Virus record (IMG/VR): IMGVR_UViG_3300026311_000005
Location: 1-38,648 of that record
From: a virus
Direction: 5' to 3' (one strand)
DNA: 38,648 nucleotides
Shown here: piece after piece, positions 26,827 through 38,648 of the stretch
Position numbering within the stretch: the first letter of the stretch is position 1
Layout of the letters: the number at the start of each line of letters is the position of its first letter
Made by a program: the position numbers and the translations under genes
Notes under the pieces: generated by a model
Databases searched by the model: none
Seen by the model: the letters and a program-made list of their open reading frames with translations, nothing else
What the model was told of the DNA's origin: nothing

Positions 26827-26952
26827 TCACGCGCCCCCGTCCCTCATCGCTTCGGCGAGATCCAGCACCCTTTCAAGACAGTCGCCGATGGTATCGCTTG
26901 CATCTCCGAACTTTGCCAGCCGGGCCTTATCTTTAATCCGGACTCGGATCAT
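26827..26952 (-). CDS. Small protein, paralogue 1 (41 aa)
   Basis: Manual translation MIRVRIKDKARLAKFGDASDTIGDCLERVLDLAEAMRDGGA; last 44 nt identical to the paralogue at 27301. Confidence 0.35.
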   Translation of the reverse strand: MIRVRIKDKARLAKFGDASDTIGDCLERVLDLAEAMRDGGA

Positions 26953-27094
26953 AGTCGTCTCCATGCTAGATAGCAACGCGCGTATTGCTTATAAAGATAA
27001 CGGTATCGCGCCATGTGGCAACGCATGTTCCCTGCTATTGCCAATTGCAAGTTCAGGGCGGGGAGTAGTCACTCAGATTCCTCTGCATCCAAAT

Positions 27095-27300: not shown

Positions 27301-27444
27301 TCACGCGCCCCCGTCCCTCATCGCTTCGGCGAGATCCAGCACCCGCGCCAAACAGTCGGCCATCGAATCGGAAGCGTTCCCGAAGTTGGCGAGCCGGGCG
27401 TGATCGGCCCTATTCACCCGAATGAGTATTTTATCATCTGACAT
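27301..27444 (-). CDS. Small protein, paralogue 2 (47 aa)
   Basis: Manual translation MSDDKILIRVNRADHARLANFGNASDSMADCLARVLDLAEAMRDGGA; TATA-like TTAATA about 25 nt upstream. Confidence 0.35.
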   Translation of the reverse strand: MSDDKILIRVNRADHARLANFGNASDSMADCLARVLDLAEAMRDGGA

Positions 27445-27535
27445 CAAGGATAGTGAGCCCTCAAAGTATTAATATCTTATCCTTCGGTTTATGTCGTAAA
27501 CTACTTATATAACGAATACAACTAAGGGATATGGC

Positions 27536-27672
27536 GTGTCGCGTCGAGTCGAGTCAGGTCCGGTCGTGGCAGTCGCGTCGAGTCAGGTCGGGTCGGGTCG
27601 GGTCGTGGCAGTCGAGTCGCGTCAGGTCATGTCGAGTCGCGTCGAGTCCAGTCGGGTCCGGTCGTGGCAGTC
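27536..27672. repeat. Pentanucleotide array 1: about 27 tandem NNGTC units in three blocks, each ending in GTGGCAGTC
   Basis: Read directly: GTGTC GCGTC GAGTC GAGTC AGGTC CGGTC GTGGCAGTC ...; 5-bp periodicity, six GAGTC units. Confidence 0.8.
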
Positions 27673-27696
27673 TAACCAAAATGGAGTTGAGAAAAA

Positions 27697-28332
27697 GTGG
27701 CAGCAAAAGCAAAAGCGCCCGCCCAGAGCGGGCCTATAACCCTGAAAAGGATCGAGTTGGAAACGGTTGTCGTCCCGATCGTGGGGACCTCTGAGCTGAT
27801 CGTTCACAAGTGGAGCGATAAAGCCAAGCGCCAGATGCTAGACAAGCAGATGAAACCGGGGACCAGATCAAAGAAGGAAGCAAAAGACCCGGTAGCCGAC
27901 TACGAGGCGTCGAAATATAAGACGCCCGAAGGCAAAGATGCGATGGTGACGACCGCCTTCAAGAAGGCGATGGTTGACGCCCTCCGCTACTTCGACGGTG
28001 TGAGTATGGTCCTGGGAAAGACCGCCTTCTTTGTAGAGGGCGAGTACGTCGAGCTGGAGGGCGAGCCCCGGATGAGAGAAGACATGGTGAGGCTGGACGG
28101 CGGTGGGTCTGCTGACATCCGATACCGGGCCGGGTATCCTGAATGGAAGACGAAGCTCACCATCACCTACGCAAAGGATATCCTCACTATGGAGTCGGTC
28201 CTGTCCCTGGTAGAAGCAGCGGGACAGACCCAGGGCGTTGGCGAATGGAGGCCGTCGTCCAAGAAGACCACCGGTCCCTTCGGTCGGTTCACGATCGACA
28301 CGTCCCGGAAAATTGAGGTGATCACTGCATGA
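27697..28332 (+). CDS. Hypothetical protein (211 aa), first gene of the repeat-flanked plus-strand cassette
   Basis: ORF track; GTG start with GGAG about 11 nt upstream; no recognisable motif. Confidence 0.5.
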   Translation: MAAKAKAPAQSGPITLKRIELETVVVPIVGTSELIVHKWSDKAKRQMLDKQMKPGTRSKKEAKDPVADYEASKYKTPEGKDAMVTTAFKKAMVDALRYFDGVSMVLGKTAFFVEGEYVELEGEPRMREDMVRLDGGGSADIRYRAGYPEWKTKLTITYAKDILTMESVLSLVEAAGQTQGVGEWRPSSKKTTGPFGRFTIDTSRKIEVITA

Positions 28333-28853
28333 CCAAAATGGTATATGCCTGGAGAGAGGGGCGGAGCGCCAGCCCCTACCTTTCCAACGTATCCCCCCAG
28401 GTGGTCGGTGAAGAGCTGGAGAAGGTCCGAGAACAGGGGGGGGGGATGATCTTTCCCCGTGCCGTCATCGATCACGCCCGACCATCCGACTCGCCCCTCC
28501 ATTCATGCTTTGAATGGAACGACACGGAAGCCGCCGAGAAGTTCCGAATCGTCCAGGCGAGGGGGGTCATCAAGTCTGTCGAGATCGTCGAGATCAAAGG
28601 CAAACCACTCCCCTCCCCCATCGTAGCCAACGTCAGCGTGACGCGCCGGGCCGTTGTGCCGGGCGATCCAAGGATCAGGTATTATGAGAGCACTCCTCTC
28701 GCCCTCCAGGACCCGGAGCTTCGGGACCAGGTACTCCAGAAGGCTCTTAGGGAGCTGGAATCCTGGCGGGAACGATACGACGCCTTTACCGAGTTCAGTC
28801 TGGTCTTCGGCTCGATAGAAGCCATCCAGAAAAAGATAAGATCTTCAGCCTGA
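28329..28853 (+). CDS. Hypothetical protein (174 aa), second gene of the cassette
   Basis: ORF track; 4-nt overlap with the upstream gene. Confidence 0.5.
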   Translation: MTKMVYAWREGRSASPYLSNVSPQVVGEELEKVREQGGGMIFPRAVIDHARPSDSPLHSCFEWNDTEAAEKFRIVQARGVIKSVEIVEIKGKPLPSPIVANVSVTRRAVVPGDPRIRYYESTPLALQDPELRDQVLQKALRELESWRERYDAFTEFSLVFGSIEAIQKKIRSSA

Positions 28854-28860: not shown

Positions 28861-28868
28861 TTTTCATG

Positions 28869-29025
28869 GCGGTCGGGTCAGGTCGTGTCGGGTCCGGTCG
28901 AGTCGAGTCGTGTCAAGGCAGTCGGGTCCGGTCGGGTCGAGTCATGTCTCGTCACGTCGAGTCAAGTCAAGGCAGTCGCGTCGTGTCGTGTCATGTCACG
29001 TCGTGTCGCGTCTGGTCGTGGCAGC
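28869..29025. repeat. Pentanucleotide array 2: about 26 tandem NNGTC units in three blocks punctuated by AAGGCAGTC, AAGGCAGTC and GTGGCAGCC
   Basis: Read directly; same unit type and orientation as array 1. Confidence 0.8.
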
Positions 29026-29060
29026 CGTGGCGTGTCTTGCTGCCACTATTCTATTTTTAT
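29017..29060 (+). terminator. Putative intrinsic terminator of the plus-strand cassette
   Basis: Stem GTGGCAGC, 13-nt loop, GCTGCCAC, followed by TATTCTATTTTTAT. Confidence 0.45.
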
Positions 29061-29170: not shown

Positions 29171-30529
29171 TCATGGCGCGAAGTCCTCCAGCGTCGCCGG
29201 GGGCCTCTCCGCCGCCGCCAGTCTAGCCTCGGCGATCTCGACGTACTCAGGCTCAAGCTCGATCCCGATATATCCGAATCCCTCCTCTTTCGCGGCGACG
29301 AGGGTCGTACCCGATCCGGCGAATGGGTCCAGGACCGTCCCGCCTGGGGGGGTGACGAGCCGGACTAGGTAGCGCATCAGCTTGAGGGGCTTGACCGTGG
29401 GGTGGTGGTTTTGGCGATGGGTTTTGCCTCGGAGATATGGGTTGTCAATCGGGGTGTTTCGTCCATCGTCTGTGATCCGATCTGGCATCCCCTCCAGCCC
29501 CCGGTTCCGTTCGGCCCGGCTCGCCTTCGCTACATATACGATCGGGTCCGGGTCTATCTGGAGGAAGAAGCGGGCGGCGGTGCCTTCTCTATCATGCCAT
29601 GTATGTTGCCCCCCCTTCAACCCGAACATACCACCCGGATCAGCTGATACTTTACCGCGGCCTTCTACAGAACCGCCGCTCTTCAGATGCCCCGATTGCT
29701 CCGCTATGAGCCGTACCGCACATCCTTCGACGCAGTCCTCCCCTCGCCGAACGCACCCCGGCGCGTGGCCGAGGATGAGGTTCGCAGGCCAGCGGCCAGA
29801 AGGGTTCTGGACGAACTCCGACCGATTCGTGTCTTTATATCCGCTTGGATATGTTCTGTTTTTTTGAACATGCCGGCCAGACGAAAGGATATCTCCCGTC
29901 CCGATCCGGCACCCGTCCACATTCACCGCGCCGCAACCCCACCGGAGGACGTTCGCCGCAACCGTCTTCTCTGATAACGGTTTGCGAGCCATCACGATCG
30001 GTTCATGGGCGGGCTTAAGAGCGGTCCCCCACCCGTCCCATTGGCGGGCGGCATCGGTGGCGGGGGCGGTGATGTCGACAGTTTTGCGGCTACCATCCGC
30101 TGGCAATGCGGGACCGTTTGCATATTGACTACCTCTGCCACCTGTTGCATTATTCCCCCAAACTTCTGATTGCCCTATCACGTCCCGCTCGGCCCCAGCC
30201 GCCCGGTCGATCGCCTTCGACACGTCCAGACTTTTCGGGAATCCTGATCCATATACCCAAGAGATACAGTCCCTGATCTCGAGTCCCGCGTCCTCGATCG
30301 CGCAAGCCAGCCGATGATAGGTCCGAGTCCCTCCGAACGCCAGCAGATAGCCGCCGGGCTTCAGGACGCGCCACGCCTGCCTCCAGACCTCCTGATCGTA
30401 GGCTATCCCTGACCCATCCCATTTCTTTCCCATGAACCCCAGCTCATAAGGCGGATCACAGACGATCGCGTCGATAGAGTTCTCCTCCATTTCGGCCATC
30501 CGTTCACGGCAATCTCCCTGTAATATCAT
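29171..30529 (-). CDS. DNA methyltransferase, beta-class amino-methyltransferase (N6-adenine or N4-cytosine), orphan
   Basis: Motif IV IVCDPPYE near the N-terminus and motif I VLDPFAGSGTT near the C-terminus; Cys-rich middle region; no adjacent restriction endonuclease. Confidence 0.85.
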   Translation of the reverse strand: MILQGDCRERMAEMEENSIDAIVCDPPYELGFMGKKWDGSGIAYDQEVWRQAWRVLKPGGYLLAFGGTRTYHRLACAIEDAGLEIRDCISWVYGSGFPKSLDVSKAIDRAAGAERDVIGQSEVWGNNATGGRGSQYANGPALPADGSRKTVDITAPATDAARQWDGWGTALKPAHEPIVMARKPLSEKTVAANVLRWGCGAVNVDGCRIGTGDILSSGRHVQKNRTYPSGYKDTNRSEFVQNPSGRWPANLILGHAPGCVRRGEDCVEGCAVRLIAEQSGHLKSGGSVEGRGKVSADPGGMFGLKGGQHTWHDREGTAARFFLQIDPDPIVYVAKASRAERNRGLEGMPDRITDDGRNTPIDNPYLRGKTHRQNHHPTVKPLKLMRYLVRLVTPPGGTVLDPFAGSGTTLVAAKEEGFGYIGIELEPEYVEIAEARLAAAERPPATLEDFAP

Positions 30530-32259
30530 CCGAAGCCCTCCAGCGTCGCCGGGGCCTCGAAGCTAAACAGGCTTTCCTGTTCATGATTCTTAAGCCCGGT
30601 GTCCACATCGCCGTATATCGATTTGATATTTTTGGGATCACCCTTATAAAATACCAGAACGTTCTGGTGAGTCTTCCCAAGCTTCCGGTATCCCTGAAAC
30701 TGCTTATTCACCCGGATAGGGAGCGACCCCACCGACGTGATCAGGACGGCCTCATTATAAAGGGTCGCCCCGGCGTCCTGGAAGGCTTCGATGGTATCCC
30801 CCACGAAGTTACGATAGAAGCCCCGCCGATCCCGGATATCCCCCACGACAAAGCAGGCGAATCGATCCGGCTTCAGCATCCCCACCGACGCCGCGACGAT
30901 GCCCCGATAGGTCTTGAGGAAGCCCTCATAATCCATGGTGGATAAGTCGCGGGGGTCGTCTGAGTATCTTTCGAGGTCGAAATATGGAGGACATGAAAAG
31001 ATGAGATCGTACCGACCGGGGGCGATGGCGGCGATGTCCTGGCTATCCCCGGCGATCCATCTGGGGTGGGTTCCGCCGTGTTTAATCGTGTCATTGTATC
31101 GAAGCTTCCGCCAGCTGTCCTTTGGCATGTATGAAACGAGGTCCCCGCCGCCTGCGTCGAAATGATCGCATATCCGCCCCGCCTCCTCGTCCCCGAAAAT
31201 ACGATCGAGAGACGCTCGGAAAGCCCGATACGCTGGAATCCTTTCTCCCTGGTTGTAGCATTTCAAGAGCTTATATCGGTTACGTACTATCAAGGTGTTA
31301 TTATCATTTAGCGTAAATGGGGACGCGATGCACCCGAAGGGCTTGTCTGTGGTAAAATGGAGTCCACACAGATCCTCGTCCGTCTTAAATGGGCATCGCC
31401 CGGAAGTTTCAAGCAGGCCGCCTTTTATAGACCCGCCCCGGCCCCGGATCGTCTCCTCCTCGTCTGGGTGGATGGTTATGATGGTCCCGCTAGGCGAGGT
31501 AGATGATTGACAGCAGCTCGCGTGACAAACTGATCGGATATAATCCGGATCGCATCCATGAAACGGTGTCCTGGCCATCGCGGCCGATACCTTGATCTGG
31601 ATCTTTCCATTATCAGACGGAGGACATTTCAACCCTATAAAATCCCATTGATCCTTATTCGCGGCTATCTGCTCCGGTCGGAGATCGACGCCGGTGTACT
31701 GGAAGCCCGTCAACGCCGCCACGATGCCCCGGACGGACCCGCCCGCGAAGGGGTCGAGGACATGGCCGCCGGGGGGCGTGAACCATCGATATATCAACTC
31801 ACAGAGGACGGGATCAAATATCGACGTGCCGCTCTGTGGCTGAGCCGCAAGAATCTTGCGGCTCACTTCGTCTAATTCGTCATCGGGCCGATTGCCCGTC
31901 ACCCAAGTCAATCGATCGCCTATCGGCCTCCCCGCGCCGTCTCCTCTCTCCCGGTGGGAGTAATCGCACGCGGGACGAGGACTCCCACCGGGAGACGCGT
32001 TCTTATAGTGGCTTCTGGCTTGCTCGGAGAAGCCGAGCAAGCCATTTTTATATTTTTTCGAGCCGTCGAATCCTATCTCCCCGTTTTGGCGGCTTATCGT
32101 GGCGGCGTCGGAATAGACATGCACACCGACGCCGCCACGTCCTATCTCGCTCTTGATCCCCTTCGCCAACCAGAACCTCTTCCTCTCCTGCCAATAGCCC
32201 TGCCGGGCGTCGAGGACGGAGAACGGCGGCATCACGAATTTATCGGATAACGTTCCCAC
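30526..32259 (-). CDS. DNA methyltransferase with a long Cys-rich insertion between motif I and motif IV, orphan
   Basis: N-terminal MPPFSVLDARQGYWQERKRFW, motif I VLDPFAGGS, motif IV-like FSCPPYFD; about 270 aa between them with many Cys; likely true start is the ATG at 32232. Confidence 0.75.
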   Translation of the reverse strand: MGTLSDKFVMPPFSVLDARQGYWQERKRFWLAKGIKSEIGRGGVGVHVYSDAATISRQNGEIGFDGSKKYKNGLLGFSEQARSHYKNASPGGSPRPACDYSHRERGDGAGRPIGDRLTWVTGNRPDDELDEVSRKILAAQPQSGTSIFDPVLCELIYRWFTPPGGHVLDPFAGGSVRGIVAALTGFQYTGVDLRPEQIAANKDQWDFIGLKCPPSDNGKIQIKVSAAMARTPFHGCDPDYIRSVCHASCCQSSTSPSGTIITIHPDEEETIRGRGGSIKGGLLETSGRCPFKTDEDLCGLHFTTDKPFGCIASPFTLNDNNTLIVRNRYKLLKCYNQGERIPAYRAFRASLDRIFGDEEAGRICDHFDAGGGDLVSYMPKDSWRKLRYNDTIKHGGTHPRWIAGDSQDIAAIAPGRYDLIFSCPPYFDLERYSDDPRDLSTMDYEGFLKTYRGIVAASVGMLKPDRFACFVVGDIRDRRGFYRNFVGDTIEAFQDAGATLYNEAVLITSVGSLPIRVNKQFQGYRKLGKTHQNVLVFYKGDPKNIKSIYGDVDTGLKNHEQESLFSFEAPATLEGFG

Positions 32260-37721: not shown

Positions 37722-38648
37722 CTACATCACCCTCGTCGGTACCCTGACCTCGAACGACTCCACGAGGAAGTCGCTAGTGAGATTATTCGAGCTGGGCGCT
37801 ATCCTCGATATCGCCAGCCTCACCCTTTGACCGGCAGACCAACCAAGGGAGCTGACGGTCGCCGTCCAGGTGTAGATGACGGGCCGGTTCTGGGTGGCGT
37901 TGCAGGCTAGGTCGCCTGAGTCGCTGGCGGTCGAGTAAGCAGTATCGACAGACCCTGCGCCGCTCGACAGGACCAACTGCTTCACCCTGAACTTAACGTT
38001 CTTGCCGGCGGCCGCCGTCTTGGCCCACCCCACGAGGGCGAACGTTATGGTTCCCCCAGTGTTGATGTCGGCCGGCACCACGAAGGCCGGCGCCTGGGCC
38101 GTCTCCTCGGTAGTGTCATCGAATGCAAGCGTAACCACCGCCTGGTTCGTCCCATCCAATAGGTATTCCTCGGGCGAGTTGGCGGCGTCAAGGTTGAATG
38201 CGGTGGGCGGCAGCACGAGGATCCTCGTGCTGTAGAGATACGTCCAGGCCGGATCGTCTGCACCCATCGACAGAACGGAGTACTGGGAGCCTTTGGCGAG
38301 CCTGGCGGCGTCACCGGATCCCCGGTATAGCAGGTCTCCCCGGGTCGTGAGGATCTGGTTCAGAAGGGTCGCCAGGGTGGCCCAGGCCGGATCGTCTGCA
38401 CCCATCGACAGAACGGAGTACTGGGAGCCTTTGGCGAGCCTGGCAGAAGTTCCGTCCGAGCGGTATAAGAGATCTCCCCTTGTGGTCAGGATCGTATCTA
38501 GTATCGCCGCCGGAGTCGAAACCCCTCCGAACAGAGGCCGGTCGTCCCGGTAAATGTAGCTGTTGGAGCCGTCGTCGGCGTCATCGATATGAACCGATCC
38601 CACCCGATGATAGACCAGGCAGATCGGGACGGTATTCGCGACGAGAGC
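37722..38648 (-). CDS. Tail fibre protein, C-terminal portion (38522-38648 duplicates 1-127); contains a tandem 46-aa repeat
   Basis: ORF track 37722..38603 with no stop upstream to the window end; internal repeat ILTTRGDLLYR...ARLAKGSQYSVLSMGADDPAW occurs twice; last large gene of the tail cluster. Confidence 0.6.
   Translation of the reverse strand, partial: ALVANTVPICLVYHRVGSVHIDDADDGSNSYIYRDDRPLFGGVSTPAAILDTILTTRGDLLYRSDGTSARLAKGSQYSVLSMGADDPAWATLATLLNQILTTRGDLLYRGSGDAARLAKGSQYSVLSMGADDPAWTYLYSTRILVLPPTAFNLDAANSPEEYLLDGTNQAVVTLAFDDTTEETAQAPAFVVPADINTGGTITFALVGWAKTAAAGKNVKFRVKQLVLSSGAGSVDTAYSTASDSGDLACNATQNRPVIYTWTATVSSLGWSAGQRVRLAISRIAPSSNNLTSDFLVESFEVRVPTRVM
38522..38648. repeat. Terminal direct repeat, copy 2 (identical to 1-127)
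   Basis: Same comparison as above. Confidence 0.9.

What the first reader, a model, noticed from the sequence alone, without database searches (positions are those of the whole stretch)
27536..27672. Tandem array of about 27 degenerate NNGTC pentamers upstream of the only two-gene plus-strand cassette
A strict 5-bp periodicity (GTC every fifth base) organised in three blocks, each closed by GTGGCAGTC, is not explained by coding, CRISPR or a known phage site. It lies between a TATA-like element (about 27505-27514) and the cassette start, so it is either a structured leader or a multi-site binding platform such as a centromere or origin. It is rich in GAGTC (GANTC), which could be a target of one of the two encoded methyltransferases.
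Basis: seen in the sequence. Interest (0 to 1): 0.75.

Follow-up and report, generated by a model that had tools for sequence, protein, structure and literature searches.

The report
VIPR guide-RNA arrays with GUC repeats
The NNGTC pentamer array is one of two guide-RNA arrays flanking a Cas7-like "Vipr" gene, so it is an instance of the VIPR virus-versus-virus RNA-guided system first described in 2026, here with a GUC repeat handle where the published ones have GGY.

Summary
GTC recurs every 5 nt at 27533-27672 in three blocks of 6, 7 and 11 units. Each block ends in a 4-nt GGCA step. A second, co-oriented array at 28868-29024 has blocks of 9, 10 and 9 units. Together the arrays bracket the two-gene cassette.

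Gene 1 (27697-28332) is a Vipr homologue. Its profile matches the SUSP1 Vipr chain in the PDB at E=1.8e-10, its G-loop is conserved, and its predicted fold matches Cas7/Csm3. Gene 2 is the conserved accessory gene (vap).

A blind database scan for (GTCNN)6GTC recovered Vipr genes in 26 of the 28 loci with large arrays. Actinophage homologues carry the canonical NNGGC arrays with the same GGCAG junction.

Seven sibling contigs (six with readable arrays) have genes 98.7-99.8% identical to the window. Their arrays differ by whole GGCAG-delimited blocks, as expected for guide cassettes.

The locus is therefore a VIPR system (two bioRxiv preprints, 2026), not a centromere, origin, structured leader or methylation target.

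Three features go beyond the preprint text I could read:
- the handle is GUC rather than GGY, and a distant clade uses GAC;
- the blocks join directly, without the 3' tails described for the type II vrRNAs;
- guide blocks turn over between strains.

No natural target was found.

The parts
27505..27514 (+). TATA-like promoter element (CTTATATAAC), about 20-28 nt upstream of the first repeat unit. It is the inferred start of a transcript covering array, vipr, vap and array.
   Evidence: Read directly. Sibling contigs carry TTATGCTAA or TTATACTAA at the same place. The function is inferred; no transcript data exist.
27533..27672 (+). Upstream vrRNA array A1 (the finding): an opening GGC-gt unit, three guide blocks, and a closing GGCA-GTC.
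   Evidence: all anchors are on the + strand with 5-nt spacing.
27538..27567 (+). Guide block U1: 6 x (GTC-NN), with NN = GC GA GA AG CG GT. It is followed by the GGCA junction at 27568-27571.
27572..27606 (+). Guide block U2: 7 x (GTC-NN), with NN = GC GA AG GG GG GG GT. It is followed by the GGCA junction at 27607-27610.
27611..27665 (+). Guide block U3: 11 x (GTC-NN), with NN = GA GC AG AT GA GC GA CA GG CG GT. It is followed by the GGCA junction at 27666-27669.
   Evidence: The identical block sits at a different array position in sibling contig L220.
27697..28332 (+). vipr: a 211-aa ancestral-RAMP (Cas7-like) protein with a GTG start, preceded by GGAG at 27683-27686.
   Evidence: PHROG 4652. 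A profile of its homologues matches PDB 36pp_D 'SUSP1 Vipr protein' at E=1.8e-10; G-loop GVGEWRP aligns with GVGDWRP, R144 with R138, and (weakly) H37 with H17. The AlphaFold2 model has pLDDT 88 and its top Foldseek hits are Cas7/Csm3/Cmr4 at probability 1.0.
28329..28853 (+). vap: the 174-aa Vipr-accessory gene, overlapping vipr by 4 nt. Its function is unknown.
   Evidence: PHROG 15946. Homologues are present in 8 of the Vipr-encoding loci and in Mycobacterium phage Donkeykong as gp50, directly downstream of its vipr homologue (36% identity, E=4e-19). The structure model is poor (pLDDT 65) and gave no fold match.
28868..29024 (+). Downstream vrRNA array A2, not in the original finding. It opens with GGC-g. 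Block D1 is 28872-28916 (9 units), D2 is 28921-28970 (10 units) and D3 is 28975-29019 (9 units). GGCA junctions lie at 28917, 28971 and 29020.
   Evidence: D2 is present unchanged in five sibling contigs, and D3 differs by one NN from a block in L217.
29018..29060 (+). Terminal hairpin GUGGCAGC...GCUGCCAC (29018-29046), built on the last GGCAG junction and followed by a T-rich run. It is the inferred terminator or 3' cap of the last guide.
   Evidence: Minimum free energy -14 kcal/mol; also found by the terminator scan. The element is conserved in siblings and in L074, where the sequence is GGCAG...CTGCCAC followed by T9.

Best explanation
The array at 27533-27672 and its twin at 28868-29024 are the guide-RNA (vrRNA) arrays of a VIPR system (Viral Interference Programmable Repeat). 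They flank the genes vipr (27697-28332) and vap (28329-28853).

Proposed mechanism (inferred unless marked as shown):
1. One + strand transcript starts about 25 nt downstream of the TATA-like element. It runs through A1, vipr, vap and A2 to the hairpin and T-run.
2. Vipr protomers polymerise on the RNA, one per pentamer. They sequester the constant triplet, here G-U-C in the register of the published G1-G2-Y3, and present the two variable bases.
3. Each GGCA junction is a 4-nt step instead of a 5-nt one. It breaks the register and delimits six separate guides of 6-11 units.
4. Each ribonucleoprotein then pairs its NN dinucleotides with double-stranded DNA that reads (NNx)n, skipping every third base. 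This silences genes of a competing virus or provirus, and vap assists.

Shown here: the anatomy, the homology of the protein, the genome-wide linkage of arrays to Vipr genes, and the cassette-like variation between strains.

Inferred by homology to the SUSP1 and P. fulva systems: transcription, processing, RNP assembly, the 1-nt-skip decoding rule and the biological targets.
For: (1) The Vipr profile matches the SUSP1 Vipr chain at E=1.8e-10. The RNA-contacting residues named in the structural preprint are conserved, and the predicted fold matches Cas7/Csm3.

(2) The locus layout matches the published description: two genes flanked by pentamer arrays on the same strand, in a viral genome.

(3) A blind DNA scan of IMG/VR for (GTCNN)6GTC returned at least 120 loci. 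Of these, 39 encode a Vipr-HMM hit, and 26 of the 28 with 25 or more in-phase units do.

(4) Among the 80 Vipr loci retrieved by protein similarity, the arrays are on the vipr strand. The dominant triplet is GGC in 52 and GGT in 5. It is GTC in 5 loci, including the three closest relatives of this protein (66-80% identity), and GTT in one.

(5) The junction motif is shared: TGGCAGGC in Mycobacterium phage Donkeykong and Gordonia phage ODay, and (GT/AA)GGCAGTC here. This fixes both the strand and the register, so GTC corresponds to GGC.

(6) Seven sibling contigs have vipr+vap 98.7-99.8% identical to the window, and their flanks are mostly 93-97% identical. In the six with readable arrays these differ by gain, loss or reshuffling of whole GGCAG-delimited blocks and by single NN changes, while the constant triplet stays GTC apart from a few GCC units.

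(7) The array RNA has no special secondary structure (z=-0.83) and no Rfam match.

(8) In other GTC-type arrays, the composition of the two variable positions resembles that of codon positions 1 and 2. This fits coding-sequence targets with the wobble base skipped.
Against: No natural target was found. Long guides written as (NNx)n gave nothing, or only chance-level hits in unrelated high-GC bacteria or an AT-rich proteobacterial prophage. This held across five viral scans, one genome scan and one metagenome scan.

The constant triplet is GUC, not the published GGY, and the two preprints do not mention it. The internal blocks lack the invariant structured 3' tail of the type II vrRNAs. There are no expression, processing or binding data for this locus. 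The vap protein has no recognisable fold.
Confidence: 0.9

Rival explanations
1. It is a genuine Vipr-vrRNA ribonucleoprotein, but it decodes differently from the published type II systems. It might use another skip rule, target RNA, or act mainly in cis: A1 ends 25 nt before the vipr start codon, so filament assembly on the leader could autoregulate vipr and vap translation.
For: No (NNx)n target was found in any collection. The handle differs (GUC) and the blocks are short, 6-11 units against the published 9-16. A1 sits inside the vipr 5' leader.
Against: The residues that shape the thumb and G-loop geometry are conserved. The NN composition of related arrays resembles codon positions 1 and 2. 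Guide turnover between strains argues for trans targets. Uncultivated viruses from this kind of habitat are poorly sampled, so the absence of targets is weak evidence.
Confidence: 0.07
2. It is a DNA-level multi-site protein-binding platform, such as a partition centromere, an iteron origin or an operator array. The neighbouring RHH-like proteins or another viral protein would bind it.
For: The sites are periodic and clustered next to small RHH-like genes at 26827-26976 and 27301-27447. RHH proteins such as omega and ParG are known to bind short tandem repeats (my own knowledge).
Against: The same kind of array travels with Vipr genes in unrelated phages that lack these RHH genes. The arrays are strand-specific relative to vipr. 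The supposed sites vary freely at 2 of 5 positions, and whole blocks come and go between 99.8%-identical strains. A 5-bp period places successive sites on opposite faces of B-DNA.
Confidence: 0.02
3. It is a cluster of primase recognition sites (T7-type primases start at 5'-GTC-3'), or simply low-complexity or translated sequence.
For: GGGTC, GTGTC and TGGTC pentamers resemble T7 primase sites (abstract of PMC12839067). Mechanical ORFs of 67 and 87 aa cross the array. In Donkeykong the equivalent array is annotated as CDS gp48.
Against: A close relative (L213) encodes a Prim-Pol/D5-type primase, not a DnaG/T7-type one. Related arrays use GGC or GAC instead of GTC while keeping the same architecture. 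A 5-nt period, block lengths of 30-55 nt and -1 slips cannot preserve a reading frame, and sibling arrays differ by lengths that are not multiples of 3.
Confidence: 0.01

Closest known systems
Type II VIPR systems of Escherichia phage SUSP1 and a Pseudomonas fulva prophage (bioRxiv 10.64898/2026.04.26.720920 and 10.64898/2026.04.26.720927)
   Same: - A protein of about 200 aa with a single RRM RAMP fold, a G-loop (GVG[D/E]WRP) and a thumb arginine.
- An adjacent small accessory gene.
- Co-oriented arrays of pentamers (three constant and two variable bases) on both sides of the genes.
- A viral location.
- Variable dinucleotides that differ between close relatives.
   Different: - The constant triplet is GUC, not GGY: position 2 is U.
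- Blocks of 6-11 units abut through a 4-nt GGCA step, with no tail of tens of nucleotides or pseudoknot. Only the last block ends in a hairpin.
- There are three guides upstream and three downstream, against one upstream and three downstream in SUSP1.
- Only the C-terminal third of the protein aligns with SUSP1 Vipr by sequence.
- The host is probably an archaeon.
- Function has not been tested here.
Unannotated VIPR loci of actinobacteriophages (Mycobacterium phage Donkeykong gp49/gp50 and its cluster; Gordonia phage ODay gp19)
   Same: The Vipr is 47% identical and the vap 36% identical. The arrays are tail-less, built of blocks joined by the same GGCAG junction with a -1 slip, and lie on the vipr strand.
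   Different: They use the canonical NNGGC units and have an array on one side only. In GenBank the Donkeykong array is annotated as protein-coding (gp48 and the 5' end of gp49).
Class 1 CRISPR-Cas backbone (Cas7/Csm3/Cmr4 filaments on crRNA)
   Same: The same fold (Foldseek probability 1.0). One protomer binds per fixed RNA step, and a thumb interrupts guide-target pairing periodically.
   Different: The step is 5 nt with three bases sequestered, against 6 nt with one base flipped. There are no CRISPR repeats, no spacers, no cas1, cas2 or cas6, and no large or small subunits in the window. The guide information is interleaved with the handle rather than contiguous.
TRAP with the trp leader of Bacillus (11 (G/U)AG triplets separated by 2-3 nt)
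   Same: An oligomeric protein reads a constant triplet repeated about every 5 nt in a 5' leader.
   Different: TRAP is a closed ring with an unrelated fold. Its spacers carry no information. The window contains no TRAP homologue. The resemblance is an analogy from my own knowledge only.

Membership tests
VIPR system | Vipr protein: a minimal RAMP with an RRM core, a glycine-rich loop and a thumb, homologous to characterised Vipr | tested here: met
   The profile hits PDB 36pp_D (SUSP1 Vipr) at E=1.8e-10. GVGEWRP aligns with GVGDWRP and R144 with R138; H37 aligns with H17 only in a weak N-terminal segment. The AlphaFold2 model has pLDDT 88, and its top Foldseek hits are Cas7/Csm3/Cmr4 at probability 1.0.
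VIPR system | A minimal locus of vipr plus one accessory gene (vap), with no CRISPR array and no other cas genes | tested here: met
   The two overlapping genes span 27697-28853. The vap family recurs in other Vipr-encoding loci and lies next to vipr in Donkeykong. Nothing CRISPR-like appears in the tandem-repeat output or among the neighbouring genes scanned.
VIPR system | Flanking arrays of tandem pentamers, with a constant triplet alternating with two variable bases, on the vipr strand | tested here: met
   the strand rule holds across the 80 loci retrieved by protein similarity.
VIPR system | The constant triplet is GGY, or one of the listed alternatives NNNGG, YNNNG or NNNNG | tested here: not met
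   The triplet is GUC in 52 of 52 units in the window; only the junction units keep GGC. In the published register this reads Y-N-N-G-U, which the preprint text does not list. The supplementary logos (fig. S17) could not be viewed.
VIPR system | Variable NN positions diverge between close relatives while the constant triplet is kept | tested here: met
   The genes of seven sibling contigs are 98.7-99.8% identical to the window. In the six with readable arrays the blocks and NN differ, while the constant triplet stays GTC apart from a few GCC units. The 80%-identical relative L074 has entirely different NN.
VIPR system | Each vrRNA ends in an invariant structured 3' tail (type II architecture) | tested here: not met
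   Internal blocks are separated only by (GT/AA)GGCA. A hairpin follows the last block alone. This may correspond to the 'staggered arrays' in the legend of fig. S18, which I could not verify.
VIPR system | vrRNAs are expressed and co-purify with Vipr | not testable with these tools
   The only support is a promoter-like element and a terminator-like element.
VIPR system | The guides match natural dsDNA targets under the 1-nt-skip rule, typically in competing mobile elements | tested here: inconclusive
   There is no self-target in the window. Collection scans with five long guides gave nothing or chance-level hits in unrelated organisms. Only exact matches could be searched.
CRISPR-Cas (class 1) | A repeat-spacer array with repeats of about 24-40 nt, plus adaptation and effector cas genes | tested here: not met
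   No such repeats were found. The only RAMP present is the single vipr gene.
RHH-type centromere or operator arrays (omega, ParG, ParR) | Conserved short DNA repeats bound by an RHH dimer, spaced 7 bp or more, and linked to a partition ATPase or operon promoter | tested here: not met
   The period is 5 bp, 2 of 5 positions vary freely, blocks turn over between strains, and the arrays are linked to Vipr rather than to RHH genes in other phages. DNA binding itself was not testable.

The most novel reading that the evidence does not exclude
Position 2 of the vrRNA handle may be an evolvable, lineage-specific code letter. It is G in the published systems, U here and in several separate Vipr lineages, and A in a distant clade. 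If so, naturally orthogonal Vipr-vrRNA pairs exist, even though the residues that cradle G2 in SUSP1 (R138 and W178) are unchanged here.

In addition, tail-less arrays appear to exchange, gain and lose whole guides by recombination at the identical GGCAG(T/G)C junctions. This would give a virus population a fast-turning guide repertoire without any Cas1-like integrase. Neither point appears in the text of the two VIPR preprints.
Probability: 0.5. Interest if true: 0.65.

Novelty: new variant of a known kind. Interest (0 to 1): 0.5.

Why it matters
VIPR was reported only in 2026, as an RNA-guided DNA-recognition system proposed to predate CRISPR. This locus extends it in three ways.

- It shows a well-preserved system in a virus that is probably archaeal (Methanosarcinales).
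- It shows that the repeat handle is not fixed at GGY. That matters for searches that look only for YNNGG, and it could supply orthogonal handles for engineering.
- It offers a natural set of near-identical strains whose guide blocks differ. This is direct evidence on how guide repertoires change, which the text I read of the two preprints does not address (searches for 'recombination' and 'acquisition' in the discovery preprint found nothing relevant).

It also exposes annotation errors: such arrays are called as protein-coding genes in deposited actinophage genomes.

Tried and rejected
- **Structured leader or riboswitch:** rejected. The RNA fold z-score is -0.83 and Rfam gave no match at E<=1 apart from a spurious scaRNA hit inside vap.
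- **Coding:** rejected. The 5-nt period, the -1 slips and indels between strains that are not multiples of 3 rule it out.
- **GANTC methylation cluster:** rejected. The window has 170 GANTC sites, which by my own rough base-composition estimate (about 140 expected) is unremarkable, and only 10 fall in the arrays, wherever NN = GA.
- **T7-type primase sites:** considered after and rejected. A close relative encodes a Prim-Pol-type primase, and sister arrays use GGC or GAC.
- **Self-targeting:** no match better than chance under any skip rule from 0 to 3.
- **Target hunting:** five viral scans, one genome scan and one metagenome scan, plus a local scan of 1.7 Mb with 21 guides, all failed. The single viral hit (L124) is an AT-rich proteobacterial prophage. 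The genome and metagenome hits lie in bacterial contigs of 62-71% GC, and none continues with the next NN.
- **vap function:** Pfam gave no hit, the model has pLDDT 65, and the best Foldseek hit has E=1.5 to HTH proteins. It remains unresolved.
- **Specificity residues for U versus G at handle position 2:** p211 K90 (A in GGY-type proteins), K73 and S187 separate the groups. With only 9 GUY-type sequences and lineages interspersed on a rough NJ tree, this is a lead, not a result.
- **Host:** the capsid protein's nearest database relatives are phages of Firmicutes and Actinobacteria at about 40% identity, which is uninformative. The Methanosarcinales assignment rests on short 91%-identical segments shared with BK063672. 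One close Vipr homologue is binned to a Dehalococcoidia MAG.

Full report
**1. What is in the sequence**

From 27533 to 27672 the + strand reads GGC-gt, six GTC-NN units, GGC-a, seven GTC-NN units, GGC-a, eleven GTC-NN units, GGC-a, GTC. Every junction is a 4-nt step, so the GTC phase slips by -1 from block to block.

The pattern (GTCNN)3GTC occurs 34 times in the 38.6-kb window. All occurrences are on the + strand, against 0.03 expected from shuffles. They fall in two places only: the reported array, and a second one at 28868-29024 with blocks of 9, 10 and 9 units.

The two arrays bracket two overlapping + strand genes, 27697-28332 (211 aa) and 28329-28853 (174 aa). A TATA-like CTTATATAAC lies about 20-28 nt before the first unit. 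After the last block, an 8-bp hairpin built on the final GGCAG is followed by a T-rich run.

**2. What the cassette encodes**

Pfam gives nothing for either protein. PHROGs places them in two families of unknown function.

The 211-aa protein has more than 2,300 homologues. A profile built from them matches a single PDB sequence, 'SUSP1 Vipr protein' (36pp_D), at E=1.8e-10. In that alignment GVGEWRP pairs with GVGDWRP and the thumb arginine R144 pairs with R138. H37 aligns with H17 only in a weak N-terminal segment of the same search.

The AlphaFold2 model (pLDDT 88) matches Cas7, Csm3, Cmr4 and type VII Cas7 chains at Foldseek probability 1.0.

The 174-aa protein is 36% identical to gp50 of Mycobacterium phage Donkeykong, which lies just downstream of that phage's Vipr homologue gp49. 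Its own fold could not be resolved.

**3. The literature**

Two bioRxiv preprints from 2026 describe VIPR systems.
- They consist of a phage-encoded ancestral RAMP (Vipr), an accessory gene (vap), and flanking vrRNAs of 9-16 pentamers.
- In each pentamer a constant GGY is sequestered by one protomer, and the two variable bases pair with double-stranded DNA while skipping every third target base.
- This gives programmable transcriptional silencing of competing phages.
- Alternative repeat consensuses (NNNGG, YNNNG, NNNNG) and 'staggered' tail-less arrays are mentioned.
- GUC, GTC and GUY are not mentioned in either text.

**4. Independent tests of the link between array and protein**

- A blind scan of IMG/VR for (GTCNN)6GTC returned at least 120 loci. 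Of these, 39 encode a Vipr-HMM hit. The fraction rises with array size: 3 of 61 loci with 7-12 in-phase units, 10 of 31 with 13-24, and 26 of 28 with 25 or more.
- Conversely, the 80 Vipr loci retrieved by protein similarity mostly carry pentamer arrays on the vipr strand. The dominant triplet is GGC in 52 and GGT in 5. It is GTC in 5, including the three closest relatives at 66-80% identity, and GTT in one.
- Pooling both sets, the sense-strand triplets are GGC 45, GGT 4, GTC 15, GTT 1 and GAC 25. GAC belongs to a distant Vipr clade, and some of its arrays have tails of about 40 nt.
- The actinophage arrays are joined by TGGCAGGC and the arrays here by (GT/AA)GGCAGTC. This shared junction fixes both strand and register: GTC here corresponds to GGC there. 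The change is therefore G to U at handle position 2.

**5. Behaviour between strains**

Seven contigs from other samples carry vipr+vap at 98.7-99.8% nucleotide identity to the window. Their flanks are mostly 93-97% identical. Six of them carry readable arrays.

These arrays differ by whole GGCAG-delimited blocks.
- Upstream there are 3 blocks in the window and 4 to 8 in the siblings.
- Downstream there are 3 blocks in the window and 5 or 6 in the siblings.

Some blocks recur in different contexts. Window block U3 reappears at another position in L220. Window D2 is the fourth downstream block of five siblings. Window D3 differs from a block in L217 by one dinucleotide. Several blocks are mosaics of others.

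The constant triplet stays GTC, apart from a few GCC units in the siblings. The dinucleotide just before each junction is always GT or AA, so it probably belongs to the junction rather than to the guide.

This is how independent guide cassettes should behave. It is not how iterons, operators or a folded leader should behave.

**6. Rivals**

- A structured leader is unsupported (z=-0.83, no Rfam family).
- Translation is excluded by the 5-nt period and the slips.
- A DNA centromere, origin or RHH operator does not fit the free variation at two of five positions, the block turnover, or the linkage to Vipr in phages that lack the RHH genes.
- GANTC sites are not enriched.
- T7-type primase sites were considered and dismissed.

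**7. What remains open**

No natural target was found. Long guides written as (NNx)n gave nothing or chance-level hits in viral, genome and metagenome collections. Only exact matches could be searched, and viruses from this kind of habitat are poorly represented.

The composition of the variable positions in other GTC-type arrays resembles codon positions 1 and 2. That fits coding targets with the wobble base skipped, but it is only a hint.

The host is probably a member of the Methanosarcinales, on the basis of short 91%-identical segments shared with BK063672. This is not secure.

Transcription, processing at GGCA, RNP assembly and the skip rule are all inferred from the SUSP1 work.

**8. 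Verdict**

The finding is a real feature that is now explainable: the upstream vrRNA array of a VIPR system. The kind is known, from 2026 preprints.

This instance is a variant in three respects: its GUC handle, its tail-less blocks joined by GGCA on both sides of the genes, and its probable archaeal-virus setting. The strain comparison adds evidence for cassette-wise guide turnover.

Interest is moderate (0.5). It would be higher if the handle variation and the recombinational guide exchange prove to be undescribed.

Noticed in passing
L122 1980-2366 and 2333-2500 (Mycobacterium phage Donkeykong, NC_051648.1 36870-37390): The NNGGC vrRNA-like array upstream of the Vipr homologue is annotated in GenBank as protein-coding: gp48 'hypothetical protein' and the 5' extension of gp49. 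The related mycobacteriophages that carry the same Vipr homologue and array (L152-L157, L165) may be annotated the same way.
   Followed up: partly
L006 (vipr-sense coordinates about 950-1050 and 1720-2130), L024, L032, L044: A distant Vipr clade (HMM E between 1e-10 and 1e-5) is flanked by NNGAC pentamers on the vipr strand, so handle position 2 is A. In L006 the arrays are separated by conserved tails of about 40 nt (GTGTTTATCACTCAGACAAGGAGGCTGTTTTTCCT).
   Followed up: partly
L035 and L027 (IMGVR_UViG_3300037070_005035, 68 kb): This contig has 136 in-phase GTC units spread over many arrays, yet no ORF reaches the Vipr HMM threshold. It may encode a more divergent Vipr, or the arrays may lack the gene.
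   Followed up: no
window 26827-26976 (-) and 27301-27447 (-): Two paralogous genes of 48 and 49 aa share a near-identical C-terminal half (...DCLxRVLDLAEAMRDGGA). They lie just upstream of the VIPR promoter region and diverge from it. They may be small regulators. Neither matches Pfam or PHROGs.
   Followed up: no
window 38244-38493: A 138-bp tandem duplication (1.8 copies, 85% match) lies inside the ORF 37722-38603 (-), which has a weak tail-fibre PHROG hit.
   Followed up: no
window 29171-32259 (-): Two adjacent N6/N4 DNA methyltransferase genes (452 and 577 aa) lie immediately downstream of the VIPR locus on the opposite strand. The second has a ParB-like N-terminal match. Their specificity is unknown.
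   Followed up: no
L216-L218, L220, L221 upstream arrays: A few units in sibling arrays read GCC instead of GTC (for example GAGCC and ATGCC). This suggests that handle position 2 tolerates either pyrimidine in this lineage.
   Followed up: no
window guide blocks and sibling blocks: The first variable base is G in 62% of units in this strain family. That is well above codon-position-1 usage (39%) and above other GTC-type arrays (45%). The bias is unexplained.
   Followed up: partly
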